The notes under the pieces were generated by a model. It was not told where the DNA came from. It was given only the letters and a program-made list of their open reading frames with translations, and did no database searches. A program made the position numbers and the translations under genes. A DNA stretch of 64,000 nucleotides from Candidatus Latescibacterota bacterium (lineage in GTDB: Bacteria; Latescibacterota; UBA2968; UBA8231), in NCBI GenBank assembly GCA_965215195.1, contig CBDCDC010000002.1:1792001-1856000 (forward strand). The letters are read 5' to 3'. Position 1 is the stretch's first letter, and each line of letters opens with the position of its first letter. Positions 13,682 through 40,199 of this stretch are shown piece after piece.

Positions 13682-13683
13682 CT

Positions 13684-14430: not shown

Positions 14431-14432
14431 AG

Positions 14433-16470: not shown

Positions 16471-16490
16471 ACTAGGTCTTGAGGGCTACA

Positions 16491-25509: not shown

Positions 25510-26880
25510 TTGACATTACCCAGTAGCGATCTATCTTGTCTTGCCAAAATTACAAGCGACACCGGACCGGTCCGTTTTGAGCTTGTACGCGAGATTGAGA
25601 TAGGGTCTAACATAATGCAAGACTGGAATTGGCATAAGAACACTTGGATCTGTTCTAAGGAGGGCCGCGAGCATCATGCGCTCGCCAATTTTTGCGCCGT
25701 TTGCGGCGGTTCTGTCGCGAGCAAACCTGTCGATCTCATGGCCGATATACCTCCCGGAGAGAGTAAGGATAGCGCCGTCGAGAATTTGCCTGTCACTATG
25801 GACCACGTTGACGACCTCTTTAACGTGTTCGGCCAGCCCTTATTAGTGAGCAAACCCAGCGGAACAATGCACACCTACATAGAGAACGAGCCATGCGATC
25901 TGCCTCAGCTCAATGGGGCTTCCTTGCGTCAGGTGGATTTTGACCGCTGGTGGATTTACGCGATCACTGAGGTGGGGACGCTTCAAGTACTTCCGACCTC
26001 TGCATTGTTAAACGAAGATATGCTTCGAGGTGCTCAGTGGAAGCAGGTTGCCGTGGAATGTGGGCGCGTCGAGAAAATGGCCCTAGGTCGGAATCGGCTT
26101 TTCCTACTGGACCAAGAGGCATTGACTATTCATGTACATAAGGTAGATAAAGCAAGTTGCGCTCGATACTGGAAGAGCGAGAACCGCATCTTCGACGAAT
26201 TGCAAAAGCAAGAGCTAGACGAAAATTCGTTGCCTATCCAAGAAATGATCCCAATTCGGGGAAGCGATACCTATCTGGGCTTAATAGAAGAGGAAAACAG
26301 GATTGTTTTCTTAGATTTGGAACAGGGCAAGAACGTCTCGCATGAGGATGAGGATGCCCGCGGCGGCCCATTAGCCGCTTCGGCGGGCGTGATGCGCGGC
26401 GAGGATCCGTCAATATGGCTATTGACTCAAGAAGGGGGCTTGTGTGCCCTACAGTTAGTCGGCCAACAGGTGCTAAAAGAAATTCCGAGCCAAACCGCGG
26501 TAGAGGTACAGGCCCTACAGGCATTGCGGATCAAGTCCGGCTATTGCTATATGGCGATAGGGTCTAATTTTATGCTGTTGTTCGATCCATTGAGCCGGCA
26601 AGTTACGTCCACATTGGAGTGTAGTCCCGGATATTCCATGAGGCACATCGATCAGACCAAAGGCTTGGGCGGCTTGGTCGCCAACTTCCAAAGAGGAGTA
26701 AGAGCTAATACGGAATTTCGTCTTTCCCGTCTTGATGAACGGGGAGAGGGACATTTCTTGCGTGGCTGGCCTTTAGGCGAAGATCCGGTTGTGCCGCCAG
26801 CGGGTTTCGGCAAGTACGTGTACGTGATGACCCGCGATCATGAGTACCATCTATATCGCTATGACCTATTGGCCGTTTGA
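25510..26880 (+). CDS. Hypothetical protein, N-terminal zinc ribbon plus probable beta-propeller region
   Basis: WICSK...H...FCAVCG; short beta-strand-like repeats; start uncertain (TTG 25510 or ATG 25615). Confidence 0.6.
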   Translation: MTLPSSDLSCLAKITSDTGPVRFELVREIEIGSNIMQDWNWHKNTWICSKEGREHHALANFCAVCGGSVASKPVDLMADIPPGESKDSAVENLPVTMDHVDDLFNVFGQPLLVSKPSGTMHTYIENEPCDLPQLNGASLRQVDFDRWWIYAITEVGTLQVLPTSALLNEDMLRGAQWKQVAVECGRVEKMALGRNRLFLLDQEALTIHVHKVDKASCARYWKSENRIFDELQKQELDENSLPIQEMIPIRGSDTYLGLIEEENRIVFLDLEQGKNVSHEDEDARGGPLAASAGVMRGEDPSIWLLTQEGGLCALQLVGQQVLKEIPSQTAVEVQALQALRIKSGYCYMAIGSNFMLLFDPLSRQVTSTLECSPGYSMRHIDQTKGLGGLVANFQRGVRANTEFRLSRLDERGEGHFLRGWPLGEDPVVPPAGFGKYVYVMTRDHEYHLYRYDLLAV

Positions 26881-28468
26881 AAACCAGTCATTCTGGTACG
26901 TTGCTCTGCTCTGCTGCCTAGGGCTTGGCGGCCCTCGTGCCGCCGCTGGGATGGATGTCAGCATATTGGTCGATGGCTCTGGTTCAATGGAGGGCTTCCA
27001 GCAGACAGGCGAGCTACAGAAATTGCTGACCTCGTTAAAAAAAGTCTGCCAAGACCAGCAACTGGAGGCGGGTACTTTATTTTTTCTATCCCACCACCCG
27101 GATTCGCTAGTGTGGCTCGAGGAGACCCAAGGCGCACAATGGGGCAGCTATACTAATTTGCTCAGGGCTTTTGAAGAAAGGCTTGGATGGGCACCTATCA
27201 CTTTTCTTATTACCGATAATGTCCAAGCGACCACCAATGACGAGGATGTTCGGGGGCTCTATGCGCGTTTTGCCGAGGATGTGGTACAAGTACTATATGC
27301 CGTGCCGCTGAGTCTGCCCTTTGACGGGCGGTTGTTCAATCACCCCGACAAGATTTACCACCAGGGTCAGCGTGGGGCGGTCCTGTATGCCTATCTCACA
27401 GAAGAAGATCAGCGCGCTAGATTCGGCAAACTCATCTCCCAACTCAGGGCCGGCGGTTTGGAACCGATGCTGATGAAACCGCTAGACCACCGCATTGTTC
27501 TACATCGCAAACGCCGGACACCTTCGGATCAGCCGAGTGATATCGGCATGGACGAATACGAGTCGGTCAATTTCTCCTTTACCCTAGAGTCGCAATTGAG
27601 CTACCTGAATATCGAGCCGACGGATGAGTATGGTAATCCGGTGCGGTTAAAGGTGAGCCAGCCTAGGATCGTTCCCATGCAGCCCGAAGACCGGCGGTAC
27701 TGGAGTCGAGCCGGCGGGAGAGGGCGAGTTACTCCACCCCGCCTCGAAGAGAAGTTGGAGCACAATACCCAGAACAAATACCGCTATTCGTGCCGGGTCC
27801 GCCTAGGCCCGTTCCAGCCCAACGAGGTTGGCTTTTTCGACCAGCTTGGTATGGCGCGTATAAGCCCGATTCCAGTGCAATATATGTCCAAGGTCGTCTT
27901 GGAGATACCGCCTGGCTCGTTTCGCATGACTCCGATTTATCAGGAGAAGTACTTTACCGACAATCCCCAAGAGGTCGAGCGCATCTATACGCCAGACGAT
28001 CTGATACACTTCCTGCACCGAGACCGAAAGGGTTTGGAAGTGGTGCCCAAGGGAGGAGCCATAAGAGGTAGGTTGCAAGTCCGTTCCCCTCTCTATCTGT
28101 GGCGGGCTTGGGTCGCGGTGATCTTGCTACCCATCGCTGTGGTAGCTGCCGGGGGAATGGTTTATTTTAGGAGCCTCGTTTATCGGCTGGCAGACGTCGA
28201 GTACAAGTACTGGATGCGCCCCCGCGGTCAAAAGGAATTGGAGTACACAAACCAAAGCGGAAAGAATATCGTTTTGGGATATTTGCGGCGAGACGGCCTG
28301 TTCAAATGCAAATACCACTTATTGCCGGCCAAAGAGGGCGACGAAAGGGCTGAACTAAGAAATCGGATGGACGATCCGGTCGGTGAGGAGGGGGTGGCTT
28401 TTGCAAGGGATGAAAAATGGGTTTTCAACCACAAGGGCAATGAATTTGAACTGGAACGCCTCAAATAA
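26861..28468 (+). CDS. Membrane-anchored von Willebrand A domain protein
   Basis: Signal peptide, MIDAS DGSGS plus YTNL and LITD, late TM WVAVILLPIAVVAAGGMVYF, about 100-aa tail. Confidence 0.75.
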   Translation: MTYWPFENQSFWYVALLCCLGLGGPRAAAGMDVSILVDGSGSMEGFQQTGELQKLLTSLKKVCQDQQLEAGTLFFLSHHPDSLVWLEETQGAQWGSYTNLLRAFEERLGWAPITFLITDNVQATTNDEDVRGLYARFAEDVVQVLYAVPLSLPFDGRLFNHPDKIYHQGQRGAVLYAYLTEEDQRARFGKLISQLRAGGLEPMLMKPLDHRIVLHRKRRTPSDQPSDIGMDEYESVNFSFTLESQLSYLNIEPTDEYGNPVRLKVSQPRIVPMQPEDRRYWSRAGGRGRVTPPRLEEKLEHNTQNKYRYSCRVRLGPFQPNEVGFFDQLGMARISPIPVQYMSKVVLEIPPGSFRMTPIYQEKYFTDNPQEVERIYTPDDLIHFLHRDRKGLEVVPKGGAIRGRLQVRSPLYLWRAWVAVILLPIAVVAAGGMVYFRSLVYRLADVEYKYWMRPRGQKELEYTNQSGKNIVLGYLRRDGLFKCKYHLLPAKEGDERAELRNRMDDPVGEEGVAFARDEKWVFNHKGNEFELERLK

Positions 28469-28483: not shown

Positions 28484-29533
28484 ATGAAACGGCACATCGC
28501 GCTCGGATTCATACTGGCTATCGGCTGGATGGGGTGTGGCGGGCCGGAACAAAGCGGCTCCACGTTTACCCAGCAGATTGCCAAGGAAGAGAAGGCAAGC
28601 GTAGTATTCCTCAAGGTCTCTACCAATGAAGGAGACGGACTGGGGAGCGGAATCATCGTTAAGTCAACGGGCCAAATTCTCACGGCGCACCATGTGATCA
28701 AGGGCATCAAAGAAGGATGGGCCAAGCCGTTCAACGGGACTTGGATGCCGATTACGGGCGTTGTCGCCCAAGACGAACTCAAAGATCTGGCGGTGATAAA
28801 CGTCGATCCGCGCAACCAACACCTACAGCCGTCTAGGCTTGGGTCGGGAGAGTATATAAGTTCGGGCGATCCCGTGGTGGCCATAGGCAACCCGTTGGGG
28901 CTAGAGTACTCGGTCACCGAAGGGATTATCTCCGAGGTTCGCACCACCCCGGAGGGCCTCAGACTAATTCAGACGGATGCGGCCGTATCGCCGGGCAACA
29001 GCGGCGGGCCTTTATTCGACCAGAACGGCGAGGTAATTGGCGTGGTAAGTTTCAATCTAAGCTCTAGCCGCGACGAGGGGCAGAATCTCAATTTTGCGGT
29101 CTCAATTGATGAAGCTAAACCACTGCTGGGCATCCCCTCGGACCAATTTGAACCTGTTCGGGTGGGAGTCCCGCCACCGGAGACTAGCTCGCAGAGCTCC
29201 TTTCGCTATGTAGAGATTGGGCGCATAGTCTGGATTTTGGTGTTTTCTGTAATCGTCTATCTCTTTTCGGCCTACATACTCTTTAGCGGGCTCATCAAGA
29301 ACCGAGACAAGCACCCGGCCACGGCTTTTGGCATATCCGCCCTCGTATCGTGGGTGGGCTTTGCGGTGATCGCCTCCTTTGTGTTGAGTGGCCTTTTCGA
29401 TTTTTTAATGGGCTGGGTGTCAGGTTCGCAAATTGAATGGCGAGTCTGCATCGCTGGGCTGGTGTTCCTAATTCTCATCTTGGTGGTAGTAAGACTTGTC
29501 TCCCGGCCATCGGCCGTTAAAAGTTCAGAGTGA
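28484..29533 (+). CDS. Trypsin-like (S1C/HtrA-type) serine protease, no PDZ, three C-terminal TM helices
   Basis: TAHHVI, DLAVI, AIGNPLGL, QTDAAVSPGNSGGPL; lipobox-like WMGC. Confidence 0.9.
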   Translation: MKRHIALGFILAIGWMGCGGPEQSGSTFTQQIAKEEKASVVFLKVSTNEGDGLGSGIIVKSTGQILTAHHVIKGIKEGWAKPFNGTWMPITGVVAQDELKDLAVINVDPRNQHLQPSRLGSGEYISSGDPVVAIGNPLGLEYSVTEGIISEVRTTPEGLRLIQTDAAVSPGNSGGPLFDQNGEVIGVVSFNLSSSRDEGQNLNFAVSIDEAKPLLGIPSDQFEPVRVGVPPPETSSQSSFRYVEIGRIVWILVFSVIVYLFSAYILFSGLIKNRDKHPATAFGISALVSWVGFAVIASFVLSGLFDFLMGWVSGSQIEWRVCIAGLVFLILILVVVRLVSRPSAVKSSE

Positions 29534-29624
29534 GAGACACCCGCCGGATACTTCGACCTGAGCGCAGCCGAAGATTTTCAGGCCACATCTAATACCAGTT
29601 GAAGCAAAATTGAAAGAGAACACC

Positions 29625-32600
29625 ATGCCTAGGGTCGGTACTCTAACTCAAGCAGAAAAAGAAAACAGAACGATCGCTATCCGTCCCACACTTTTGATCG
29701 GCTTGGGAGGTACGGGAAAGGAAGTACTGCGGCGACTGCGACGGATGTTCTACGAGAAGTACAGAGTAGCGGGTTTACCCATCATGGAGTACCTATGGTT
29801 CGATACTGACATCCGCAATGAGTCCCTGAGCGGGGAGACACCTGACGAGTTGGACAGGCTCATTGACCTTGCCATTTCACAGAAGATTGATGGTCGGGTC
29901 CAGCCCGGGGAGTTAGCTGGATACCGGCGCAACAAGAATGCCTATCCGCATATATGGAACTGGTTGCCCCGCGAACTAGATGCGCTGCCCGACAACGCCA
30001 TCACGCAAGGGGCAGGGCAGATCCGTTCTTTTGGACGGTTGGCTTTCTTCCACCATTATGCAAGAATTCGCAACGCCATCAACACATTGGGGAGAAAGGT
30101 AACTGCCCAAGAGGCTTCCGAGGACATGAACCGCCGTTACCCTGATTATACGGTAGATAATAGTACCTTGGAGATCATTACCGTGTCTTCTCTCGGTGGT
30201 GGAACGGGGTCCGGCTGCTTTATTGACGTCGGATTTCTATGTCGATCTTTGTTCCCAGCTTCTACGCGCACGGCTTTTCTGACCATGCCCACGGTTTTCG
30301 ACGGGGTGGTGGGTCCCACAGGGGTAGAGGCCGTCCATGCCAACGGCTTTGCCGCGCTCAAGGAACTCGAGTACTTCATGCAGCCCCGGTTTAGCGCCAC
30401 CACAGATGAGGATACAAGCGAGTACTCTCCTCACGAATTTAATTGGGATGGAACCCCACAGCAGGTGGAAGCACCGCCTTTTTCTACGGTCTATATGCTC
30501 GACAAGGAGAATATTGACGAATTCACCGATACATTCCAGATGATCGCTGAGTTTCTGCTGCTGGATTTCGACAAGACCGGATTCGCCGCTCAAAAGCGCA
30601 GCGTACGTTCCAATATGGAGCAGTACCTACAGGATATGGCCACCTTCCGCAGTGGAAACGATGGAAGCTATGTCCAGTATTTTCCATGCCGGTATGCATC
30701 TTTTGGGCTCTCCCAGATTGAATTGAATCAGCCTCGTCTGGCCAATGCGGCTGCCAACCGCTGCGCTCAGTATCTGGTAGAACTCATCATAGCCAAGGAT
30801 AACAGAATCCCTCAGGGCTTTGATGATGCCGATGTCAAACCCCGCATGGAGCAGATGGGCCTTACTAAGGAACTCTTTTTGCAACGCTGCTTGGTCAAGC
30901 CGGGCAAGGATTTCACCTTGATTGACGAGGTTGTCAACGAGTTGATCGAACCGGCTTTCAATAAATTGCAGGACGATCTGTACACGGCACCAGCGGTAGA
31001 GGATCAAAAGGTTTTGGATCGCCAAGTGGAACAAACGCGGCAGCAGGTGGGTGAATTGGTCCGCCAAGTGCGGGAACGAGTAGGGGAAAGACTGTTACAG
31101 CAAGGCACCCAAAAGGGCGATGGTGTGACGCAGATTTTGGAAAATATCGGCGCGAACCGTCCCATGCTCGAAAAGCGAGTAGAGGATGAATGTCTGAAAT
31201 TACTGTGCGACCCCTTGGAGTTCGGCCCTAAATTCATGGTTGAGTGGCTGAAGATCACCGTCCCTGTACTGGAGCGAATCAAAGAGGAATTGCAGGCCAT
31301 AGAGAATCGGCACATAGAAGCACCAGAGGCTCCGCCAATCAAAATCGAATTTTCCGACGAGTATAATAAATACGAAGCTCTCCTACGAGCGGCTAGGCAG
31401 GAGATGCCCTTTGCCTTCTTAACGAAACGCATTGCTATCAACCATTACGAAGAACGCAAACGGAGGTCCTTTGATCAGAATGCCCAACTCATCACTCGTG
31501 ATCTGGTGCAGCAGGTAGAGGCCGTCAGAGATCAACTCAAGCAATGGGTCACCGCTCGCTACAAGCAGGAGGCGGCCCGTCGGCTGCTCAATCCCAATTC
31601 CGGAAGACATGAGCAGGAAAAGGGCCTGATTGACAACATAATCGGCTTTGTCGGCCAACAGACCGAAGTCCGGGGTGCAGATGGCGAACTCCATGTGCAA
31701 CTCAGTGGTTTGCTGGCCAAGGTGGAGAAATTTCAAGAGCATCTTCAAGAGATGGCTGACCGCTTCGAGGGTTTCTATCGTTCTTATAGCAACCGAATGC
31801 CTAGTGTGCGCAATCTCGATCTCATGCCTGAACTTAACTATCGCGAGGAAATTGAGACATATCTGCGCGACAAAAAAAGACGGACAGGTGCCGGTTTCAA
31901 TGAAGTTTTACAAGGTGTTCTGGAGGCCTATTTTCGCTCGGAAGAAGCCCGGCCGCTATTTGCTGAGTACGCTACTCGCGAAGGAAGCGCGATCGATGCC
32001 ATACGCGATTGTACTCGCATTATCTTCAATCGATCTGCGAATAGGGACAATACCCCTCGTGATTGGAGAGAGGTAGAGAAGTCATTGAGTGAGTTCGCGT
32101 TTGGCCTATTTAAGGAGTTCTATGATGACAGAAACGCCGTTCAAGAGGTGCAAAACCAGAACTATAATGAGGGAGATGAGATACAAAAAAGATCAAGGCT
32201 AGCCAAACCACGGATGTCTGAGGCAACACCACGTTTACCGGGTATGGATCCTCACATCCAGAAAACAATAGGACTTCCTCCAGGTGAAAACAGATGGAAA
32301 ACGCTAATCGAACAAAACGTTCGAGACCCTCAAGTGGCGCACCACGCCCCTGATTCGGTTATATTTGTCAGCCAATGGATGGCCTTTCCCCTATTCGCTA
32401 TCGACAATTTGAGGCAACTGCACGCAGCATACGAAAACAACCTTCTTAGAATGCCGCAAAATGTATACCGTCGCTACACGACCAAGGACTATATCAAATA
32501 TCCGGAGGTCCTACCGCCTAAAGACGACGACGAAGCGCAAATGCTAGTGGATGCCCTACAACCGCTCATTGGTGGTATCCTACTCGGGGTAGTGGCTTAT

Positions 32601-33071
32601 GACAAACGACGATTCTACCGAACTTACCGAGCACAGGGCCGAAGGCGCGAGGAGTATTACGGACTTAATCTCGAGGACGCACGCCGGACTTTGGCCCGAG
32701 ACCAGATCATACGAGATAGACTGCGCCAAGAGGTACAAAACATTCAGGATAACTGGCGATTGAATGGCAATAACCTCGCTTTTGAGCAGTACTTGGCCCT
32801 CCAAAGACATTTAGTGGAGCATGTATATCCAGATACCAGAGTTGTGATACGCGGCCAGAGTGAGGATGTGGACGTATTCCACAGCTTGCTTAGCGAGGCT
32901 TTCGGCGAGAGTTTCAATAAGGAGCGGCAGCACTTGGACATCAGCGAAGAAGAATTGGACGGCCGTATCTACGAACACTTGCAGGACAAAGATCGTTTTG
33001 CCAAACCCCTAGACTACCGCGATCCTCACTGCAAAGACGATATATATGTGATGGATGGTGCCAATGCCTAG
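29625..33071 (+). CDS. Tubulin/FtsZ-like GTPase (Tubulin_2/FtsZl type) with long helical C-terminal region
   Basis: IGLGGTG, FDTD, GAGQIRSFGR, SLGGGTGSG, ANGFAALKEL. Confidence 0.9.
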   Translation: MPRVGTLTQAEKENRTIAIRPTLLIGLGGTGKEVLRRLRRMFYEKYRVAGLPIMEYLWFDTDIRNESLSGETPDELDRLIDLAISQKIDGRVQPGELAGYRRNKNAYPHIWNWLPRELDALPDNAITQGAGQIRSFGRLAFFHHYARIRNAINTLGRKVTAQEASEDMNRRYPDYTVDNSTLEIITVSSLGGGTGSGCFIDVGFLCRSLFPASTRTAFLTMPTVFDGVVGPTGVEAVHANGFAALKELEYFMQPRFSATTDEDTSEYSPHEFNWDGTPQQVEAPPFSTVYMLDKENIDEFTDTFQMIAEFLLLDFDKTGFAAQKRSVRSNMEQYLQDMATFRSGNDGSYVQYFPCRYASFGLSQIELNQPRLANAAANRCAQYLVELIIAKDNRIPQGFDDADVKPRMEQMGLTKELFLQRCLVKPGKDFTLIDEVVNELIEPAFNKLQDDLYTAPAVEDQKVLDRQVEQTRQQVGELVRQVRERVGERLLQQGTQKGDGVTQILENIGANRPMLEKRVEDECLKLLCDPLEFGPKFMVEWLKITVPVLERIKEELQAIENRHIEAPEAPPIKIEFSDEYNKYEALLRAARQEMPFAFLTKRIAINHYEERKRRSFDQNAQLITRDLVQQVEAVRDQLKQWVTARYKQEAARRLLNPNSGRHEQEKGLIDNIIGFVGQQTEVRGADGELHVQLSGLLAKVEKFQEHLQEMADRFEGFYRSYSNRMPSVRNLDLMPELNYREEIETYLRDKKRRTGAGFNEVLQGVLEAYFRSEEARPLFAEYATREGSAIDAIRDCTRIIFNRSANRDNTPRDWREVEKSLSEFAFGLFKEFYDDRNAVQEVQNQNYNEGDEIQKRSRLAKPRMSEATPRLPGMDPHIQKTIGLPPGENRWKTLIEQNVRDPQVAHHAPDSVIFVSQWMAFPLFAIDNLRQLHAAYENNLLRMPQNVYRRYTTKDYIKYPEVLPPKDDDEAQMLVDALQPLIGGILLGVVAYDKRRFYRTYRAQGRRREEYYGLNLEDARRTLARDQIIRDRLRQEVQNIQDNWRLNGNNLAFEQYLALQRHLVEHVYPDTRVVIRGQSEDVDVFHSLLSEAFGESFNKERQHLDISEEELDGRIYEHLQDKDRFAKPLDYRDPHCKDDIYVMDGANA

Positions 33072-36000
33072 GGAAGCGAGTCAAGAGCGGGTCGATAAGG
33101 CGATAGGTGCTTGCCCTGTTTGTCAGTGGCCTTATGGGAGCGGAAGCATCTTTTGCAGCAGTTGCGGGATTCAACTCGTCCGTCTAGAGGTATTTCCCAA
33201 GCCCAATGAGCTATTGACCCTCTTCGAAGGTTATCCAGTCATCATGCGGTTCGAGAATACCGGGAAAATACCCGTGGAACTGGAACGTCTCGACGGAGTG
33301 GAGTGGGGAGAATGGGTTTCGGAAACGAATTGGCCCGCCTCCTTGGATCCAAAGGAAAAAATAGAAATACGCCGGCTGCATACCGAGCGTCGCGGCCAAC
33401 GAGGGCGGTTGACTCTGCACCCCACGCTGTTGCCGATTTCATTTCGTTACCGGGTCCAAAAGGCTCCCCGAATCTGGCTGACTGACGAGCAGGGGCGAGA
33501 GTTTGAACAAGGCACTGACGGCGCACAGTTGTGGGCGGTAAATCGGGAAGCCCAATGGCACTATCTAGCCCTTCACACCACAAGCGAAGTGATTTTGGCA
33601 AAGCCTCCCCGTCTGTTCAAGGGAGATCAGATGGTGGATATAGTGCCGGCGGAAGAGGTAAGCTATCCCTTCCGCTTGGATCCAGATAAAGCCTTTCCGG
33701 TAAGACTCACCCAAAATCAGCCTCTGCCTGAAGAAGGGCATCCTGTACATCTCGTTTTTCCCATCCAGAACATAGGTGATGTCGATTTTCATCTCAATCT
33801 AAAGTACACTCTTCGGCCGGTGCTCAGAGTGGAGTTTAAGCCGCGGGGTTTCACCGGTGACACGGCACTTATCAGCGGAAGCCGAAAACAGAAGAATGTA
33901 AGTGCTACCATTACGCACTTACGGGGCGCACCACTACGCATAAATGCCGTGACTAGCGATACGTCTTGGCTACAGATCGTTGACAGCAAGGAGACCCCGG
34001 TCGTCCTTAACCCTCAGAATTCAACGGCGGGAGCTGATGAGGAGAGTGTGCTAAATATCCAGTTGCAAATGAAGACTGTTGATATTCCTCGGGTAACAGA
34101 ATCAAAGCACTTTGAACCCAAGATCGTCGTCAAGGGAGAGGCTATAGGAGCGGAAGATTCGGCGTTCGAAAAGGGGTATTCGCTTCCTGTCGGAGTAGTT
34201 CCTCCCAAACCGTTAGATCATCCTATTGGCATCGATTTTGGGACGACCAACTCTTGCTTGGCCTATTATGTTGTTGAAGATGAAGAAACAATGCCTCGCT
34301 TGGCAGAATTCGAGAGCAATGATCCTCGTGCCGAAGTGCCGACTGTCTTTCAGCTTAGAGCAATTAGGAAGAGAGCCGAACGTCTGGAAATTCTCGGAAC
34401 TCTGGAGGCTGACGAGCATCATTTGGTGGCGACCGAGAACGAGGAAGCTATTATGAGCTTTGGACGTAAGCCATTCGACCAGGTCGCCGGGATCAATCGG
34501 GACAACTTCGACGGCAATGATATCTGGAATTCTATGAGCAGTATCTGCTGGAATTTCAAATACGCTCTCAACCGACCCTATGATCCAAATATCTATATTG
34601 ATACCGGGATGTCGGGTATTTTGATCAATGGGCATCGCCCTAATACGCGGAATATCAGTCTGACTCCGGTGGATCAAGTAGCTATTTACCTCCGGTTTAT
34701 GGTAGAACGCTTCATTGAAGAATCCGGGTATTTGCCCAAAGAGATCTTTCTGACTTATCCGGCGGTATTCAACCGCCAAAAACAGGCCCTACAGGACGCC
34801 GCCGAAAAGGCTTTGCAGGAGCGCGACATTGAGACCCGCCTAGAGATCAGTGAACCTGAAGCTATCGCGGTGTATTATGTATGGCAGCTTATGGTTAGGG
34901 CCAATAAAGATAATATGGAAGAGGAGCCTGCCGATAAAGATGATGTGGATGAACGGATCATTGGGGTGTTCGACTGCGGCGGGGGGACGACCGATATCTC
35001 CATCGTACGCTATACTATGGGGGATGGTGAATATCAAATGAATCAAGTGGAAATTCTCGGTTCTGATGGTGACAATCGACTAGGGGGGAACCTACTGACA
35101 TTTTGCTTGGCTAAATACTTCTATGGGGAACTCGTCCCTGAACAGTATCGTAGTCGTTTTCCCTTTCCCAAGGATCTACGCGATGGCTTACGCACTCAAG
35201 AGGCTAGTGTGAAAACGAACTTCCTAAAGCTCTACCAGTTAGCCGAGATGATAAAGACGAACAGCACAACTTATGAGCGATTCCAAGGATGTTTTTCCCC
35301 ACAGCGCTATGAGGAACTGAACCAGATAAGGGATGTGGGATTGCTGGACCTGCTCGCCAGTGGGGAGAAACTGAATTGGCCTAGCATTGAGTTAGCCAGC
35401 CTCGAAGAGAGCGATGTATTCCGGGTCAATGGCTTGAAGCGCAGCATCAACAACGGCGACTTGCCAAGGCAACTTAGCTCTATGGATTATCAGGCTATTT
35501 TTTCTGTGCTTCGCCGAGAATTGGAGCGGGGTTTCAAGAAACTGGACTTGATGCAGAAGGAGCTTTACAAGCGGAAAATTATATCCAATTTCCAGTTGGA
35601 TCATCTTATTTTGGCAGGCAATTCGTCCAAATTGCCGATTGTGAATGAGATCGCTCAAGGTATGGAAACCAAAGAAGTTTCGGCCCCTGCTCTTTCTTCA
35701 CCGGATTTTAATAATGAACGAAAGGTTAGCGTAGCCGCGGGAGCGGCTCTTTACGGAAGGTCTCTACTGGAAGATCAAGAATCCCCCCTCGAAGTCTCTG
35801 GAATACACAAACTAAATTATCCGCTAGGTTCCTACAATACGATGAGAGGCTTCAGGCCCATTTTTGATCGCTGGCTTTCCCTAGAGAAGGGAAAAGTACA
35901 TTCCCGTGCGAGCAAAATTATCTCCAAGCGTCAATCCCGCACTCGACGAATCTTACTGTTCGAATTTTTCGGTTGGAACTACAAAAACCTGAAGGCAGAC

Positions 36001-36210
36001 CGGCAGCAAGTGGCAGCTATTCCCATGCCACTGGAGGAGCGGTCTTTTAAGCAGGCCGCTTATTGGCAGTACAAACTCGAGCTTCGGGGCGACGAAAACA
36101 ATCGCGGTCAGCTCTATTACAACTTCGCGGTAGGACAGGAGAAGGATGGAAGTGATTTTGAAGAAATCTATGATGGATACTTGAAATGCGAGGACTTTAA
36201 CTATAGTTGA
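33064..36210 (+). CDS. Atypical Hsp70-family ATPase with N-terminal zinc ribbon and beta-rich (Ig-like) domains
   Basis: CPVC...FCSSCG; GIDFGTTNS, TYPAVF, ISEPEAIA, VFDCGGGTTDIS, GDNRLGG, LAGNSSKLP, VAAGAA. Confidence 0.85.
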   Translation: MPREASQERVDKAIGACPVCQWPYGSGSIFCSSCGIQLVRLEVFPKPNELLTLFEGYPVIMRFENTGKIPVELERLDGVEWGEWVSETNWPASLDPKEKIEIRRLHTERRGQRGRLTLHPTLLPISFRYRVQKAPRIWLTDEQGREFEQGTDGAQLWAVNREAQWHYLALHTTSEVILAKPPRLFKGDQMVDIVPAEEVSYPFRLDPDKAFPVRLTQNQPLPEEGHPVHLVFPIQNIGDVDFHLNLKYTLRPVLRVEFKPRGFTGDTALISGSRKQKNVSATITHLRGAPLRINAVTSDTSWLQIVDSKETPVVLNPQNSTAGADEESVLNIQLQMKTVDIPRVTESKHFEPKIVVKGEAIGAEDSAFEKGYSLPVGVVPPKPLDHPIGIDFGTTNSCLAYYVVEDEETMPRLAEFESNDPRAEVPTVFQLRAIRKRAERLEILGTLEADEHHLVATENEEAIMSFGRKPFDQVAGINRDNFDGNDIWNSMSSICWNFKYALNRPYDPNIYIDTGMSGILINGHRPNTRNISLTPVDQVAIYLRFMVERFIEESGYLPKEIFLTYPAVFNRQKQALQDAAEKALQERDIETRLEISEPEAIAVYYVWQLMVRANKDNMEEEPADKDDVDERIIGVFDCGGGTTDISIVRYTMGDGEYQMNQVEILGSDGDNRLGGNLLTFCLAKYFYGELVPEQYRSRFPFPKDLRDGLRTQEASVKTNFLKLYQLAEMIKTNSTTYERFQGCFSPQRYEELNQIRDVGLLDLLASGEKLNWPSIELASLEESDVFRVNGLKRSINNGDLPRQLSSMDYQAIFSVLRRELERGFKKLDLMQKELYKRKIISNFQLDHLILAGNSSKLPIVNEIAQGMETKEVSAPALSSPDFNNERKVSVAAGAALYGRSLLEDQESPLEVSGIHKLNYPLGSYNTMRGFRPIFDRWLSLEKGKVHSRASKIISKRQSRTRRILLFEFFGWNYKNLKADRQQVAAIPMPLEERSFKQAAYWQYKLELRGDENNRGQLYYNFAVGQEKDGSDFEEIYDGYLKCEDFNYS

Positions 36211-36234
36211 GTGTAAAGCCAGCAAAAGATATTT

Positions 36235-37167
36235 ATGGCAGAATTCCAAGAAAAGGTTGATGCTCTAGGCAACGAAGTTGCCCTCTGGGAGAAAGAACTC
36301 CAAGCTCTGCGAGAAATCGTCGACAAGACAAGACAGATCCGAGAAGAATTACACAAACGCGGTCTCGGCGACCTCGTATTCGCGCAGATCCTCGATGTAG
36401 CCAAGGGTTTCGATGGGGCGGAAGAGAGCTTTGTAGAAAAGGTGAACGAGTTCTTAAACGATATGAACAACTTCAGAGACAAGTTGGCAAAGTTCCGCGA
36501 CATTATGCAAGCGTCCTACGATGACTACGCAGAGCTCCGTCAATTCATCCCTACTAACACCAAATTTCAAGAGCTACAAAAGCTAGAGCTCGATCTGCAA
36601 AATAGATTAAAATCATTCCAAGAAGAAGTACAGGCTGCCTCCGAAAAATGGAATAAAAAATATTCAGATATTACAAATACCCGATATCGTTTCCGAGAAA
36701 TGCTCAACGAACTGCCCCTAGAAGTCGAAGAGATACCGTCGACACAGGATGCTGAGACTATTAACAAGGACATCGAAAAGATCAAGGAGGCCGTGAATGG
36801 GTTGGAGTTGGTCTCCCTTATAGCGAAGGAATCGGATCTCAAAGATCAATTGACGACTATCCAAGCTAAGATAGACAATTTCTGTATTCCGTGGGATACT
36901 GTCCTGACTAATTTAATTGACCAGTTGTTCAAAGAGAAAAAATCTCTAGAACAGAAACCCGCGAAATTGGAAAGATTTGTCCAAGAACGCGGCCTTGAGT
37001 TGATTTGGCCGGAGCAAGGGGACGAACACTCGCTAGCATATCACCGAATTTTAGATGAGCGAGAAGATGATCAGGTAAGCCGCGGTCAAGTGATTCGACC
37101 TGTTACACCTGGACTACGCCGGGGGGCTGAAGTAATTATCAAGGCCGGGATTTGGCTGGCGAAATGA
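36235..37167 (+). CDS. Coiled-coil protein with C-terminal GrpE-like head
   Basis: Heptad-rich for about 250 aa, then GLELIWPEQGDEHSLAYH...GQVIRPVTPGLRRGAEVIIKAGIWL; follows the Hsp70 gene. Confidence 0.7.
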   Translation: MAEFQEKVDALGNEVALWEKELQALREIVDKTRQIREELHKRGLGDLVFAQILDVAKGFDGAEESFVEKVNEFLNDMNNFRDKLAKFRDIMQASYDDYAELRQFIPTNTKFQELQKLELDLQNRLKSFQEEVQAASEKWNKKYSDITNTRYRFREMLNELPLEVEEIPSTQDAETINKDIEKIKEAVNGLELVSLIAKESDLKDQLTTIQAKIDNFCIPWDTVLTNLIDQLFKEKKSLEQKPAKLERFVQERGLELIWPEQGDEHSLAYHRILDEREDDQVSRGQVIRPVTPGLRRGAEVIIKAGIWLAK

Positions 37168-37241: not shown

Positions 37242-39026
37242 ATGAGTTTAGACTTCTTAGCCCAGAACAGCGATCAGATTCGGGACTTTTTTGTTTTTCT
37301 TATCATCTTGTTCGGCCTAGCTGCGCTTGTCCTATTTGTCAAAGGGTACAGAAGAACGCAGACATATCGCCTCGGATTGGGTGCTATTGAGAGCTGGGAG
37401 AGAGACAATCCAGATTTCAATATAGAAGAGGAGACCGACCAATCCCCCGAAGATGTTATTAAGGAAGCCAAGCATCCCTTGGCTGTCCGTTGGCTCGAAC
37501 GTTTTATAGCCTTATATCGGCAAAATAAGGCTCCTGATGTAGAAGGTTTGATAGGCTCTATCGAACACGAACTCACCCGGCACGACGAAGCATTCCGCTC
37601 GCTTACCAGCAGCCTCATTCTATTGGGCCTACTAGGCACATTTGTTGGATTAATAATCGTGGTCATACCTATCCCGGGTATTATCCAAGGAGCGCAGACT
37701 TCACCAACATTGAGTCAAGAAGTAAAAATAGAGGATGTATTTAGTACCATCCTAGAAGGGTTGGGGCAGTCAGTAAAAGGGATGCCACTGGCGTTCATTA
37801 CCAGTATAATAGGGCTTTTCGCCACCTTAATCCTAAATGGCTTATACAGCCTTCTATTACTACGCACTAGGAATACGTTGTTGGCAAACATAGAAGAGTG
37901 TTTCAACGCGAAAATCGCCCCTAGGTTTGCTATAATCCCGCCGCAGTTACGTTTGAGCCGCGTCTTCACCCGAACAGTAAACGACCTATACGATAAGTAC
38001 TTCACTACTCTTTCCGACTACTTAGACAAAAGACTCAAGGAAATTGTCGATGTTTACGATAATTATTTCCTTCTCTTTTCTGGCCATTTAGACAAAAGAC
38101 TCAAGGAAATCGTCGATAGTAACGCTCGCTTGGCCACACTTGTAGAAGAGAGCGGCACGAAGCTCAAGGAAAGTAGCGAGGCCAGTCTGAAAAGCGCGGA
38201 GATTTTTGAGCAGCACAAGGAGACGGTAGCTGCGGGGGCAAACGAAATAATGAGAGCGGCTAAGGAGTTTTCTCAACACATCAAGAACTTTGAGCGGCTA
38301 AGCGACCCCCTGAATGCGCTCAAGGACAGCGTCGATACTATGCTCGAGGAGAACAAGCGACTGATGGCCCGACAGTTTCAATCCTTTGATGAGCGGATGG
38401 ACAAACAATCCAAGTTATTTGAGGCGCGAATGGAGACCCTAGGAGACGGCCTAGCCGAGACTCTGGAGACGATAAGAGGATTGAATGACACAGATTATCG
38501 TCCCAATTTCGTGAACATCCAGAACCTGCTCACCGCTGTCAGGGAGAGCCAAGATGCCTTCCTCGAATTTCAGAAGAAGACGCTCAACGAGCAAGGTGAA
38601 GCGTTTGAAAAGGCCAAGCAACCCCTACAAGATGAATTGGAAAGGCTCCGCCAAGATCTGCAAAGATTGGGCAAGGAGCAAGGCGAGGCGTTTGAACAGG
38701 CCAAAAAGCCCTTACAGGATGAATCGGAAAGGTTGCGCCAAGAGCTACAAGGGTTGAACAAGGAGATAGTATTGTTGCAGAACCAGCTAGGCCAAGTGCT
38801 AGGAGCCATCAATCAAGGTTTCAAAAAAACGGACGAGGACCTCCAAGTACTGAAAGCTATCGATCAGGTAATCCCTCAGCTTGAAGACATGCATGCGACG
38901 GCGCAGGCAATAGAAAAACAGTTGGATGGCATGGCGAAATCGCCGCAAGGCATCGCCGGACGATCTCGAAGAAAATGGAATTGGAATAGTATTCGCCGAT
39001 TATTCAAGAAAAAGAGCAAGGAATAG
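37242..39026 (+). CDS. ZorA-like MotA/TolQ/ExbB channel protein with long coiled-coil tail
   Basis: Three TMs, LGLLGTFVGL and GMPLAFITSIIG, about 380-aa helical tail. Confidence 0.85.
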   Translation: MSLDFLAQNSDQIRDFFVFLIILFGLAALVLFVKGYRRTQTYRLGLGAIESWERDNPDFNIEEETDQSPEDVIKEAKHPLAVRWLERFIALYRQNKAPDVEGLIGSIEHELTRHDEAFRSLTSSLILLGLLGTFVGLIIVVIPIPGIIQGAQTSPTLSQEVKIEDVFSTILEGLGQSVKGMPLAFITSIIGLFATLILNGLYSLLLLRTRNTLLANIEECFNAKIAPRFAIIPPQLRLSRVFTRTVNDLYDKYFTTLSDYLDKRLKEIVDVYDNYFLLFSGHLDKRLKEIVDSNARLATLVEESGTKLKESSEASLKSAEIFEQHKETVAAGANEIMRAAKEFSQHIKNFERLSDPLNALKDSVDTMLEENKRLMARQFQSFDERMDKQSKLFEARMETLGDGLAETLETIRGLNDTDYRPNFVNIQNLLTAVRESQDAFLEFQKKTLNEQGEAFEKAKQPLQDELERLRQDLQRLGKEQGEAFEQAKKPLQDESERLRQELQGLNKEIVLLQNQLGQVLGAINQGFKKTDEDLQVLKAIDQVIPQLEDMHATAQAIEKQLDGMAKSPQGIAGRSRRKWNWNSIRRLFKKKSKE

Positions 39027-39065
39027 TCAGGCCCATCGGCTGAATGCTTGGGAAAGCAGCCTCGG

Positions 39066-39722
39066 ATGAAAAGGGATCGCAGTAGCCATAGTGGGCTCAA
39101 TTTCTGGCCTTCTTTCACGGACGCAATCACGGCTATTTTCATTTGCGTCACTTTTTTTCTCGTCGTGATGGTGATCAAGAATTACGTGGACCTGAGCCGC
39201 TTGCGTGCGCTGAAAGAACTGGTGGGTAAGATAGAGAAGGATCTCGACGAGTTAGAAGAATTCATGGGAGGAGAGGACGTCACCGTAGAAGAAGGTACGA
39301 TTGTAATGCGTAGTGATATCCTGTTCTCTTTTGATGAATCCGCTCTTGATGATATTCCCGTCGAAGGGCAAAATCAGCTCAGGCGAATAGGTCAAAAATT
39401 AAAGCAGTTTATTGAAAAAAAAGACAGTAAATTGTTCAGTATTGTGGTAGAGGGCCACACCGACAGTTACGGCGAGAGGGAATACAACCGCATTTTATCC
39501 CTGAAACGATCTCAAACTGTGGTGGACTATTGGGAGCAGGTCGACTTCACTTGGGAAAATTTCGATATCGTCCCGGTTGGCTTAGGCGAGCGGGAGCTGG
39601 TTGTTTTAACCGGAACAAAGGATGAACAGTCCCCTAACCGACGTATCGTGATCCGATTGGTGCCTAAATTTAGCCAACTAATCCAGAGCCTGAAGGAGCA
39701 GAACATCCTACTGAGGGATTAG
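39066..39722 (+). CDS. ZorB/MotB-like protein with OmpA-like peptidoglycan-binding domain
   Basis: FWPSFTD TM with conserved Asp; DILFSFD, VEGHTD, NRILSLKRS, NRRIVI. Confidence 0.88.
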   Translation: MKRDRSSHSGLNFWPSFTDAITAIFICVTFFLVVMVIKNYVDLSRLRALKELVGKIEKDLDELEEFMGGEDVTVEEGTIVMRSDILFSFDESALDDIPVEGQNQLRRIGQKLKQFIEKKDSKLFSIVVEGHTDSYGEREYNRILSLKRSQTVVDYWEQVDFTWENFDIVPVGLGERELVVLTGTKDEQSPNRRIVIRLVPKFSQLIQSLKEQNILLRD

Positions 39723-40160: not shown

Positions 40161-40199
40161 TGAGGTGAAGACTCCTTCGGCAGAAAGGTTGGTCCACCG

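What the first reader, a model, noticed from the sequence alone, without database searches (positions are those of the whole stretch)
33064..37167. Dedicated atypical Hsp70 with its own GrpE-like factor and no J-domain gene
Seen: all Hsp70 ATPase motifs start only after about 390 aa of Zn ribbon and beta-rich sequence. Only about 140 aa follow VAAGAA, so there is no normal substrate-binding domain plus lid. The next gene is a long coiled coil ending in a GrpE-like beta head. No HPD-type J-domain gene is evident in the operon. Inference: a nucleotide switch with N-terminal recognition domains, perhaps reset by GrpE and activated through the motor or the tubulin partner.
Basis: partly seen in the sequence, partly recalled or inferred. 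Interest (0 to 1): 0.7.

Follow-up and report, generated by a model that had tools for sequence, protein, structure and literature searches.

The report
Lidless Hsp70 with private GrpE-like partner
An acquired eight-gene island in an uncultured bacterium encodes an unusual Hsp70-type ATPase followed by a very diverged GrpE-type partner, apparently a private chaperone-like switch serving a tubulin-like protein and a membrane motor; its job, perhaps virus defence, has never been tested.

Summary
Gene 33064-36210 encodes a 1048-aa protein: a zinc ribbon, about 340 aa of beta-rich sequence, then an Hsp70 ATPase domain starting at residue 391. The last ~140 aa superpose on the Hsp70 substrate-binding beta domain, and there is no helical lid. 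So "no normal substrate-binding domain" is only half right.

Gene 36235-37167 is a 310-aa coiled coil. Its last ~66 residues are homologous to the GrpE C-terminal domain:
- Profile-profile comparison gives E 5.8e-7, against a best of 0.014 in 100 shuffles.
- A profile search of 1.84 billion proteins returned 62 hits outside the three listed representatives of the two subfamilies; 43 of them are Pfam GrpE.

No J domain lies in the window.

The pair sits in a low-GC, eight-gene island with a Tubulin_2 GTPase, a ZorA/ZorB-like motor, a vWA-like protein and a membrane protease. The island is present or absent at one fixed site within the genus.

Dedicated Hsp70-GrpE pairs and tubulin-vWA-OmpA operons are in print, and this scan noted similar modules in other phyla. 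I class it as a new variant of a known kind.

The parts
25510..26880 (+). Gene 1, 456 aa: protein with a Cys-rich Zn-ribbon-like stretch near residues 47-66 and no known family
   Evidence: ORF. No Pfam, NCBIfam or PADLOC match. Homologues occupy the same first position in L004, L005 and L006.
26840..28468 (+). Gene 2, 542 aa: vWA-like membrane protein (DGSGS MIDAS-like motif, one hydrophobic segment at 416-434)
   Evidence: The motif is invariant in 3 of 3 aligned homologues. Hydrophobic segment. No Pfam match, so 'vWA' rests on the motif and on recall.
28484..29533 (+). Gene 3, 349 aa: HtrA/trypsin-type serine protease with a lipoprotein-like leader and three C-terminal hydrophobic segments
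   Evidence: Pfam Trypsin_2 E 1.2e-29. NCBIfam Do-family E 3.9e-41, below the cut-off. TAHH, DLAV and GNSGGP motifs are visible. Hydrophobic segments.
29610..33071 (+). Gene 4, 1153 aa: tubulin/FtsZ-like GTPase of the Tubulin_2 (FtsZl1) family with a ~750-aa helical C-terminal extension; its stop overlaps the start of gene 5
   Evidence: Pfam PF13809 E 1.6e-64 over residues 28-390. GGGTGSG signature visible. Lies upstream of the Hsp70-like gene in the 15 loci where phmmer found it within the held flanks.
33064..36210 (+). Gene 5, 1048 aa (1051 from the ATG at 33055): atypical Hsp70
   Evidence: Pfam HSP70 42.9 bits against a cut-off of 20.6. AlphaFold2 mean pLDDT 80.8. VIA Z 28-31 to DnaK and BiP.
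33112..33177 (+). Zn ribbon of gene 5 (residues 17-38)
   Evidence: Weak Pfam Zn_Ribbon_1 match. C17, C20, C31 and C34 are nearly invariant.
33181..34203 (+). Beta-rich region of gene 5 (residues 40-380), probably tandem Ig-like sandwiches
   Evidence: All strands in the model. The protein atlas gives only weak leads to HYDIN/VesB-type Ig-like domains, score 0.79-0.83. The Poribacteria relative in L044 has a Pfam Ig-like match, E 7e-7.
34216..35778 (+). Hsp70 nucleotide-binding domain (residues 385-905), with insertions
   Evidence: Motif positions; the motif residues are invariant in 36 homologues. VIA: 7rax Z 28.8, rmsd 3.6, 367 aligned. Hsp70 chains rank above MreB, Z 23.6.
35779..36207 (+). 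C-terminal beta domain (residues 906-1048): SBD-beta-like, no helical lid
   Evidence: Full-length ATP-state DnaK 4b9q_A: Z 29.2, rmsd 4.8, 475 aligned, model 385-1047 to chain 2-505. BiP 5e84_A: 475 aligned. By sequence alone it is not detectable: hhalign E 0.67 and no Pfam match.
36235..37167 (+). Gene 6, 310 aa: coiled-coil protein with a GrpE-type C-terminal head
36964..37164 (+). GrpE-homologous head (residues 244-310)
   Evidence: hhalign against 25 canonical GrpE: probability 92.2, E 5.8e-7, 66 columns. Shuffle control. 43 of 62 library hits are Pfam GrpE.
37242..39026 (+). Gene 7, 594 aa: ZorA-like MotA/ExbB-type membrane subunit with a long helical tail
   Evidence: PADLOC ZorA3 E 7.5e-12 over residues 124-583. 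Three hydrophobic segments. The L006 homologue reaches Pfam MotA_ExbB at the cut-off.
39048..39722 (+). Gene 8, 224 aa: ZorB/MotB-like anchor with an OmpA-type peptidoglycan-binding domain and an Asp at the start of its TM helix
   Evidence: PADLOC ZorB1 E 2e-21. Pfam OmpA E 6e-12. N-terminal sequence printed.

Best explanation
Genes 5 and 6 encode a dedicated Hsp70-type ATPase and its own, highly diverged GrpE-type nucleotide-exchange factor.

Shown:
- Gene 5 has an Hsp70-family ATPase domain with all nucleotide-binding motifs conserved.
- Gene 6 ends in a domain homologous to the GrpE head, which in DnaK-GrpE contacts the ATPase domain.
- The two genes are always adjacent and always follow a Tubulin_2 gene.

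Inferred:
- The GrpE-like protein, probably a dimer through its coiled coil, speeds ADP release and so resets the ATPase.
- The lidless SBD-beta-like domain grips a specific built-in client segment rather than unfolded proteins in general.
- The Zn-ribbon and Ig-like front end tethers the ATPase to a fixed partner. The most likely partners are the tubulin-like polymer, whose gene is translationally coupled to it, or the ZorA-like tail.
- With no J domain in the island, ATP hydrolysis is triggered by another island component or by a host J protein.

The pair is the cytoplasmic core of an acquired eight-gene, envelope-spanning island: ZorAB-like ion-driven motor, vWA-like protein, membrane serine protease and tubulin-like GTPase. 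I read the island as most likely a conflict (anti-phage-type) system. That last step is the weakest.
For: **Hsp70 membership**
- Pfam HSP70 scores 42.9 bits against a cut-off of 20.6. The best PDB sequence hit is DnaK 1dkg_D, E 6.3e-7.
- The motif residues are invariant across 36 homologues of 37-86% identity.
- In a search of 48,161 PDB representatives the top six chains are Hsp70-family (Z 25.4-28.1), above MreB at 23.6.

**SBD-beta-like domain**
- 475 residues align to ATP-state DnaK or BiP through chain residue ~505-527. ATPase-only chains align over 354-367.

**GrpE head**
- Two subfamilies that share only about 20% identity each align in register with the GrpE C-terminus (E 0.018 and 0.019).
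- Their joint 80-aa profile against 25 canonical GrpE gives probability 92.2, E 5.8e-7, score 43.2. The maximum in 100 column shuffles was 19.5, and the reversed control scored 12.1.
- The same profile finds true GrpE ORFs beside Hsp70 genes in other loci; the best is E 2.9e-5 among 3010 ORFs.
- A 16-sequence head profile found 65 proteins at E<=0.001 among 1.84 billion. Of the 62 other than the three listed representatives of the two subfamilies, 43 carry Pfam GrpE at E<=0.001 and 34 pass the gathering cut-off. In the matches I examined, the Pfam hits lie over the same C-terminal stretch.
- The five best Foldseek PDB rows for the model are all GrpE chains.

**Linkage**
- 16 of 16 genomes with the Hsp70-like gene have the GrpE-like ORF directly downstream.
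- The whole eight-gene order is kept at 38% Hsp70 identity in L006.

**Accessory island**
- GC is 0.501 against 0.618 for the rest of the window.
- Among 30 same-genus loci, the site between the glycogen-debranching and TonB-receptor genes is occupied in 8 and empty in 13.
- An integrase follows the operon in L006.

**ZorAB-like motor**
- PADLOC ZorA3 E 7.5e-12 and ZorB1 E 2e-21.

**In print**
- Passages of Kaur et al. 2020 (PMC7159879) describe HSP70 plus GrpE and tubulin plus vWA themes in predicted conflict systems.
Against: - No binding or exchange was tested. Complex prediction was never run: the queue was full and the tool was then withdrawn.
- Pfam GrpE does not reach its cut-off on the 310-aa protein (22.9 bits against 25.8), and that weak match falls on the coiled coil, not the head.
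- Profiles of either subfamily, and of the head alone, find no GrpE among PDB sequences.
- Foldseek E-values for GrpE are weak (0.07-0.9). The head is the least confident part of the model (pLDDT about 50 at residues 260-290).
- The SBD-beta assignment rests on one predicted model. By sequence the domain is undetectable (hhalign E 0.67; no Pfam match).
- An equivalent of the catalytic Lys70 of DnaK could not be placed with confidence. The only invariant Lys nearby is K499.
- For the defence reading: none of the other six proteins matches a PADLOC effector, and no known Zorya partner is present. Makarova and Koonin proposed membrane remodelling for FtsZl1 operons.
Confidence: 0.6

Rival explanations
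1. The 310-aa protein keeps a GrpE-derived head only as a docking module. It acts as a structural tether, a coiled-coil strut linking the Hsp70-like ATPase to the ZorA-like tail, the membrane or the tubulin-like polymer, and has lost nucleotide-exchange activity.
For: - The head is very diverged. The conserved His of the canonical FDPxxH stretch is kept in one subfamily (H270 invariant), but the aligned position is Y or H in the other.
- The helical part is much longer than in canonical GrpE (about 250 of 310 aa).
- The distant subfamily carries an N-terminal membrane helix, which fits an anchoring role.
- Some relatives seem to carry two such proteins per contig.
Against: - Docking by a GrpE head onto an Hsp70 ATPase domain is itself what opens the nucleotide cleft in DnaK-GrpE (established knowledge; PDB 1DKG). 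Binding without any exchange effect would therefore be unusual.
- The head is the most conserved part across the two subfamilies.
Confidence: 0.2
2. The island is not an immune system. It is a membrane-remodelling or envelope-maintenance machine, as first proposed for FtsZl1-vWA-OmpA operons, in which the Hsp70/GrpE pair assembles or recycles the tubulin-like filament.
For: - Makarova and Koonin 2010 (PMC2875224; abstract and passages read) proposed this for Tubulin_2 operons with vWA and OmpA-family genes.
- Several island proteins are membrane-bound.
- No nuclease or other classical effector domain was found.
Against: - The island is patchy: 16 of 168 genomes in the phylum and 8 of 31 in the genus.
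- It has low GC and a clean presence/absence polymorphism at one site. These fit an accessory, horizontally moving cassette better than a housekeeping envelope function.
- The motor pair matches Zorya models better than flagellar or Tol models.
Confidence: 0.3
3. The Hsp70-like protein is just a spare general chaperone that works with the host DnaJ and GrpE, and the neighbouring coiled-coil gene is unrelated to it.
For: The genome encodes four J-domain proteins and a canonical hrcA-grpE-dnaJ locus that could act in trans.
Against: - The protein has a 380-aa Zn-ribbon/beta front end and no lid.
- It sits in a strict eight-gene synteny.
- The GrpE-like ORF is adjacent in 16 of 16 genomes.
- The genome already has a canonical DnaK (E 2.6e-277).
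Confidence: 0.05

Closest known systems
DnaK-GrpE chaperone pair (E. coli; PDB 1DKG)
   Same: - An Hsp70-family ATPase domain with the same nucleotide motifs.
- A partner that combines long helices with a C-terminal beta head homologous to GrpE.
   Different: - A 380-aa Zn-ribbon/beta N-terminal extension on the Hsp70.
- No helical lid.
- No J-domain partner in the operon.
- The partner is 310 aa, below the Pfam GrpE cut-off, and in one subfamily is membrane-anchored.
- The pair is encoded in an accessory island rather than in the heat-shock locus, which lies elsewhere in the genome.
HSP70 + GrpE theme of GAP1-N2 DO-GTPase conflict systems (Kaur, Burroughs, Iyer, Aravind 2020, eLife 9:e52696, PMC7159879; passages read)
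   Same: - A dedicated Hsp70 with its own GrpE inside a multi-gene predicted conflict system.
- That paper's systems also use tubulin, vWA, Zn ribbons, trypsin-like peptidases and membrane components.
   Different: - That theme is built around DO-GTPases and GAP1, and usually includes a DnaJ-fused FNIII protein.
- It is reported mainly from Actinobacteria and Firmicutes, and its tubulin and HSP70 themes are described as non-overlapping.
- Here no Walker-A protein is present and no J domain.
- Here tubulin and Hsp70 are adjacent, and a ZorAB-like motor is part of the operon. The terms MotA, MotB and ExbB do not occur in that paper's main text.
- I could not see that paper's source-data tables.
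FtsZl1 (Pfam Tubulin_2) operons with vWA and OmpA-family genes (Makarova and Koonin 2010, Biol Direct 5:33, PMC2875224; abstract and passages read)
   Same: A Tubulin_2 GTPase with a vWA-like protein and an OmpA-domain protein in one operon.
   Different: - That paper's main text does not contain the search terms Hsp, DnaK or GrpE. It treats the OmpA-family proteins as membrane transport proteins.
- Here the OmpA-domain protein is a ZorB/MotB-type anchor paired with a ZorA-like subunit.
- The paper's additional files were not read.
Zorya anti-phage systems (ZorA/ZorB motor plus ZorC/D, ZorE or ZorF/G)
   Same: - A ZorA-like subunit with a long helical tail.
- A ZorB-like anchor with an OmpA domain and a TM-proximal Asp.
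   Different: - None of the known Zorya partner families is present: the other six proteins have no PADLOC Zor match.
- The partners here are a tubulin-like GTPase, an Hsp70/GrpE pair, a vWA-like protein and a protease.

Membership tests
Hsp70 (PF00012) | Actin-fold ATPase domain with phosphate-1 (DxGTTNS), phosphate-2 (DxGGGTxD) and adenosine motifs | tested here: met
   Motifs at residues 391, 637 and 851, invariant in 36 homologues. Pfam 42.9 bits against a cut-off of 20.6. VIA Z 28.8, rmsd 3.6, 367 aligned to DnaK NBD 7rax.
Hsp70 (PF00012) | Closer to Hsp70 than to other actin-fold ATPases (MreB, ParM, FtsA, actin) | tested here: met
   In 48,161 PDB representatives the six best chains are Hsp70/Hsp110/Ssz types (Z 25.4-28.1). 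MreB scores 23.6, FtsA 20.4 and ParM 19.5.
Hsp70 (PF00012) | Linker plus substrate-binding beta sandwich after the ATPase domain | tested here: inconclusive
   The model superposes on DnaK 4b9q_A through residue 505 (Z 29.2, rmsd 4.8, 475 aligned) and on BiP 5e84_A. By sequence alone: hhalign E 0.67 and no Pfam match. The domain was not folded or searched on its own.
Hsp70 (PF00012) | Helical lid (SBD-alpha) and C-terminal tail | tested here: not met
   The protein ends 153 residues after VAAGAA. The model shows strands with only one 5-residue helix after residue 905.
Hsp70 (PF00012) | Catalytic Lys (K70 of DnaK) | tested here: inconclusive
   No invariant Lys lies between residues 430 and 495. 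K499 is invariant and is the only candidate. The profile alignment in this stretch has low confidence. The K70 numbering is recalled.
Hsp70 system | J-domain co-chaperone encoded with it | tested here: not met
   No DnaJ match in the eight proteins. PF00226 searched in six frames gives 4 matches in the genome, none in the window. The HPD tripeptides are not conserved.
GrpE (PF01025) | Whole-protein Pfam score over the gathering cut-off | tested here: not met
   22.9 bits against 25.8, matched on residues 112-158, which is the coiled coil. 6 of 35 close homologues carry a precomputed PF01025 label.
GrpE (PF01025) | C-terminal beta domain homologous to that of GrpE | tested here: met
   hhalign probability 92.2, E 5.8e-7, 66 columns, against a shuffle maximum score of 19.5 (observed 43.2). 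43 of 62 library hits of the head profile are Pfam GrpE, 34 of them over the cut-off. Cross-hits to true GrpE ORFs.
GrpE (PF01025) | Long paired helix and four-helix bundle preceding the head; overall GrpE fold | tested here: inconclusive
   Helices 192-214, 218-233 and 243-251 precede the strands. The five best Foldseek PDB rows are GrpE, but with E 0.07-0.93. The VIA wide list is filled by the N-terminal helical hairpin.
GrpE (PF01025) | Dimer that binds the Hsp70 ATPase domain and accelerates nucleotide release | not testable with these tools
Needs biochemistry.
Zorya (types I-III) | ZorA with a long tail plus ZorB with a peptidoglycan-binding domain | tested here: met
   PADLOC ZorA3 E 7.5e-12 and ZorB1 E 2e-21. 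Pfam OmpA E 6e-12.
Zorya (types I-III) | Type-defining partners ZorC/ZorD, ZorE or ZorF/ZorG | tested here: not met
   No PADLOC Zor match in the other six proteins at E<=0.01.
FtsZl1 operon (Makarova and Koonin 2010) | Tubulin_2 GTPase with vWA and OmpA-family genes | tested here: met
   PF13809 E 1.6e-64 and OmpA E 6e-12. The vWA assignment rests only on the conserved DGSGS motif; there is no Pfam vWA match.
DO-GTPase / GAP1-N2 system (Kaur et al. 2020) | One or two TRAFAC DO-GTPases and a GAP1 protein | tested here: not met
   No Walker-A motif ([AG]xxxxGK[ST]) in any of the eight proteins. GAP1 has no model in the libraries used, so its absence was not tested directly.

The most novel reading that the evidence does not exclude
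The island is a new kind of motor-coupled immune or envelope-surveillance machine in which an ion-driven ZorAB-like stator takes the place of the J domain. Rotation or a conformational change of the ZorA-like tail, triggered at the envelope, switches on a tethered, lidless Hsp70. That Hsp70, cycled by its private GrpE, drives assembly or disassembly of a tubulin-like polymer as the effector step. This would be a J-independent Hsp70 cycle wired to a membrane motor and a cytoskeletal GTPase.
Probability: 0.12. Interest if true: 0.85.

Novelty: new variant of a known kind. Interest (0 to 1): 0.55.

Why it matters
- **Hsp70 cycling without a J protein.** Hsp70 cycles are normally thought to need a J-domain protein to fire hydrolysis and a lid to hold clients. 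Here a conserved Hsp70 keeps a private exchange factor but has neither a lid nor a J partner in its operon. It is also hard-wired to a tubulin-like GTPase and a Zorya-type motor. If the pair works as inferred, it is a natural case of an Hsp70 used as a dedicated switch inside a larger machine.
- **A handle on an untested operon class.** It gives a biochemical way into the FtsZl1/Tubulin_2 operons, which were predicted in 2010 and, in the 14 papers of the held library that use the name FtsZl1, show no experimental study of this family by title or abstract (listing only).
- **A wider GrpE-like family.** The head profile built here finds a set of long coiled-coil proteins with GrpE-type heads that Pfam mostly misses (19 of 62 hits have no Pfam GrpE match).

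Tried and rejected
- **Complex prediction** (Hsp70 ATPase domain 382-905 plus two copies of GrpE-like 109-310). The queue was full, and the tool was withdrawn. Nothing was folded, so binding is untested.
- **Sequence searches of PDB.** The 310-aa protein and profiles A1, A3 and A5 found no GrpE. The hits were coiled coils, TRPM8 and RsbW at E>0.2.
- **Single-subfamily profile comparisons.** A1 against A3 gave E 0.0051, probability 7%. Each subfamily against GrpE gave E about 0.02, probability 2.5%. Only the joint head profile was decisive.
- **VIA wide search with the GrpE-like model.** The list was filled by the N-terminal helical hairpin (Z<=9.6) and says nothing about the head.
- **C-terminal domain of the Hsp70-like protein.**
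  - hhalign against 26 DnaK gave E 0.67.
  - Pfam gave nothing.
  - The atlas gave only 0.87 leads to DUF5716_C.
- **N-terminal beta region.** Only weak Ig-like leads, score 0.79-0.83.
- **Literature.** Searches combining Zorya or ZorA with tubulin or Hsp70, and Hsp70/GrpE with anti-phage or tubulin-like, listed no paper (by title and abstract start) that describes this gene combination.
- **Considered and rejected.**
  - That the HPD tripeptides in gene 2 mark a hidden J domain: they are not conserved.
  - That a DO-GTPase hides in genes 1-3: no P-loop.

Full report
**Setting**

The window is G000:C2:1792001-1856000. The closest public relatives of the gene in question lie on records titled Candidatus Latescibacterota. 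Between 25.5 and 39.7 kb, GC falls to 0.501 against 0.618 for the rest of the window.

That stretch is exactly eight same-strand ORFs with overlaps or gaps of at most 76 bases:
- Gene 1: 456 aa, no family.
- Gene 2: 542 aa, conserved DGSGS motif and one membrane segment. It is vWA-like by motif only; Pfam finds nothing.
- Gene 3: 349 aa, trypsin/HtrA-type protease with a lipoprotein-like leader and three C-terminal hydrophobic segments.
- Gene 4: 1153 aa, Tubulin_2, E 1.6e-64.
- Gene 5: the Hsp70-like protein.
- Gene 6: the 310-aa protein.
- Gene 7: 594 aa, ZorA-like (PADLOC ZorA3 E 7.5e-12).
- Gene 8: 224 aa, ZorB-like (PADLOC ZorB1 E 2e-21; Pfam OmpA E 6e-12).

The flanking genes are ordinary: a glycogen-debranching enzyme upstream and a TonB-dependent receptor downstream.

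**The Hsp70-like protein**

- By sequence it is a weak but clear Hsp70. Pfam scores 42.9 bits against a cut-off of 20.6. The best PDB hit is the DnaK ATPase domain of 1DKG at E 6.3e-7.
- I found 52 full-length-type relatives (E<=1e-129, 34-100% identity) and 8 weaker ones. I aligned 36 of them. The phosphate-1, phosphate-2 and adenosine motif residues are invariant, and the four Cys of the N-terminal ribbon are nearly so.
- The AlphaFold2 model from that alignment has mean pLDDT 80.8 and pTM 0.67. It shows a small ribbon, an all-beta region to about residue 384, an actin-fold ATPase domain (385-905) with insertions, and a final beta domain (906-1048).
- Among 48,161 PDB representatives the six best chains are all Hsp70, Hsp110 or Ssz types (Z 25.4-28.1). 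They rank above MreB (23.6), FtsA (20.4) and ParM (19.5).

**Is there a substrate-binding domain?**

ATPase-only chains align over 354-367 residues; for example 7rax gives Z 28.8 and rmsd 3.6. Full-length ATP-state DnaK (4b9q_A: Z 29.2, rmsd 4.8) and BiP (5e84_A: Z 28.1, rmsd 5.0) align over 475 residues. Those alignments span model residues 385-1047 and run to chain residue about 505-527.

So about 110 extra residues of the last domain lie on the linker and the beta subdomain, docked as in the ATP state. The Z score hardly rises, so the fit is loose.

By sequence the domain is not recognisable. hhalign against 26 DnaK gives E 0.67, and Pfam finds nothing. A forced global profile alignment does run through it in a plausible register, but that is not evidence on its own.

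I conclude that a diverged SBD-beta-like domain is likely and that the helical lid is certainly absent. The catalytic-Lys equivalent could not be placed; K499 is the only invariant candidate (the DnaK numbering is recalled).

**The 310-aa protein**

Close homologues are few: 35 proteins of 64-100% identity, 6 of which carry a precomputed PF01025 label. Pfam's own match on this protein is below the cut-off and falls on the coiled coil.

The model (pLDDT 70.9) is helical to residue 251 and then shows five short strands. The head is its least confident part. Foldseek finds nothing at E<=0.001, yet its five best PDB rows are all GrpE chains (E 0.07-0.93).

The decisive evidence came from a second, distant subfamily:
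- In L006 the same eight-gene order is kept at 38% Hsp70 identity. There the gene after the Hsp70 encodes a 275-aa protein that aligns to the 310-aa protein only over the last 58 residues (21% identity, E 0.035).
- That subfamily (36 proteins) has an N-terminal membrane helix.
- Each subfamily alone aligns in register to the GrpE C-terminus at E about 0.02.
- The joint profile of their last 80 residues, run against 25 of the 30 canonical Latescibacterota GrpE sequences I collected (5 fragments or outliers dropped), gives probability 92.2, E 5.8e-7, 66 columns and score 43.2.
- In the controls, 100 column shuffles reached at most score 19.5 (E>=0.014), and the reversed profile scored 12.1.
- The same profile picks out genuine GrpE ORFs next to Hsp70 genes in unrelated loci (best E 2.9e-5 among 3010 ORFs).
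- A head profile from 16 loci (A5) was searched against 1.84 billion representative proteins and returned 65 hits at E<=0.001. Three of these are listed representatives of the two subfamilies themselves.
- Of the other 62, 43 carry Pfam GrpE at E<=0.001, 34 of them over the gathering cut-off. In the matches I examined, the Pfam hits lie over the same C-terminal stretch. No other family recurs there, and 19 have no GrpE match.

The head is therefore a GrpE head. Against this, none of the three profiles finds GrpE among PDB sequences.

**Linkage and distribution**

- The Hsp70-like gene is present in 16 of 168 genomes searched in the phylum, in 4 of 49 genera, and in 8 of 31 genomes of the window's genus counting G000.
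- All 16 genomes have a GrpE-like ORF directly downstream. The Tubulin_2 gene is upstream wherever the held flank reaches, which is 15 loci.
- L004 and L005 keep all eight genes. L006 keeps seven by phmmer, and the head profile finds the eighth.
- Among 30 same-genus loci holding the upstream glycogen-debranching gene, the island's first gene follows in 8, which are exactly the 8 genomes with the Hsp70-like gene.
- In the remaining 22 same-genus loci:
  - The TonB-receptor gene follows directly in 13.
  - Neither gene is seen within the flank in 5.
  - 4 more distant matches gave no protein hit.
- In L006 a tyrosine integrase follows the ZorB-like gene.

This is an accessory cassette that comes and goes at one site.

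**J domain and host chaperones**

No J domain is found in the eight proteins or anywhere in the window. Elsewhere the genome has:
- a canonical DnaK;
- an hrcA-grpE-dnaJ locus;
- three further J-domain ORFs;
- a second non-canonical cluster, made of an Hsp70-vWA fusion, a 366-aa GrpE and an ATPase-only Hsp70.

**How it most likely works**

Shown: family membership of the ATPase domain, homology of the head, strict adjacency, and the accessory nature of the island.

Inferred, from the established DnaK-GrpE mechanism in which the GrpE dimer opens the nucleotide cleft (PDB 1DKG):
- The 310-aa protein exchanges nucleotide on the Hsp70-like ATPase.
- Without a lid, the beta domain would bind and release quickly. 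It is therefore more likely to handle a dedicated segment of a partner.
- The front end tethers the ATPase. The 8-17-base overlap of the tubulin stop with the Hsp70 start suggests coupled production with the tubulin-like protein.
- What fires hydrolysis is unknown.

The defence reading rests on three things: the ZorAB-like pair, the island's behaviour, and the parts list it shares with the predicted conflict systems of Kaur et al. 2020. It is weakened by the lack of any known effector and by the older membrane-remodelling proposal. What I say about how Zorya works is recalled, not read here.

**Comparison and novelty**

A dedicated Hsp70 with its own GrpE inside predicted conflict systems is in print (Kaur et al. 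2020; passages read). Tubulin_2-vWA-OmpA operons are also in print (Makarova and Koonin 2010; abstract and passages read).

Neither main text, as far as I searched it, describes this combination:
- The 2010 paper does not contain the search terms Hsp, DnaK or GrpE.
- The 2020 paper does not contain the terms MotA, MotB or ExbB, and it ties its Hsp70 theme to DO-GTPases, GAP1 and a DnaJ fusion. None of those was found here.
- Their supplementary tables were not seen and could list such operons.

Five literature searches listed no paper (by title and abstract start) linking Zorya-type motors with tubulin or Hsp70.

Earlier notes of this scan, which are unchecked and on other genomes, report similar tubulin/Hsp70/GrpE-like modules in Armatimonadota and ZorAB-like pairs in tubulin operons of other phyla. 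So the scan has met this kind of system before on other DNA. I did not test those records.

I class the finding as a new variant of a known kind.

Noticed in passing
L133 (G000:C2:1030000-1048000), 7656-12542, minus strand; outside the window: The same genome has a second non-canonical chaperone cluster. It holds a 711-aa Hsp70 fused to a vWA domain (HSP70 E 6.6e-132, VWA E 3e-26), a 366-aa GrpE (PF01025 E 1.4e-11) and a 531-aa Hsp70 matching only the ATPase part of the Pfam model (positions 1-375 of 599). It resembles the HSP70 + GrpE + second HSP70 theme of Kaur et al. 2020.
   Followed up: partly
L044 (Poribacteria record), 2955-15113: A more distant version of the module: two Tubulin_2 genes and a 1164-aa Hsp70-like protein with a Pfam Ig-like domain at its front. 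The last ~60 residues of that protein (1096-1158 of the 1165-aa stop-to-stop frame) match the GrpE-like head profile (E 5e-5 among 3010 ORFs). A downstream coiled-coil protein (447-aa ORF; 453-aa stop-to-stop frame) ends in a weaker match (E 6.9e-4). This may be an Hsp70 with a fused GrpE-type head. The canonical GrpE profile does not hit it.
   Followed up: partly
Proteins P0132-P0149 and others: 19 of the 62 library hits of the head profile have no Pfam GrpE match. They range from 97 to 791 aa and most are 197-791 aa. This suggests a wider family of GrpE-headed coiled-coil proteins that current models miss. P0135 and P0139 share a longest-contig length (35763) with the Hsp70-like P0062, and P0133 and P0137 share another (15122), hinting at two such proteins per system.
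   Followed up: partly
L004, 14144-15771: In this close relative the ZorA-like gene matches in two overlapping frames (14144-14443 and 14395-15771). This could be a frameshift, an assembly error or a split gene.
   Followed up: no
window 39722-40200 and same-genus loci L139-L159: Where the island is absent, the glycogen-debranching and TonB-receptor genes lie only a few hundred bases apart (about 350-550 in most empty loci, about 1.1 kb in L148, from the tblastn coordinates). The insertion site is therefore a short intergenic spacer. No repeat, tRNA or integrase marking the island ends was looked for, apart from a tRNA scan of 15-48 kb that found only tRNA-His and tRNA-Arg at 16393-16567.
   Followed up: partly
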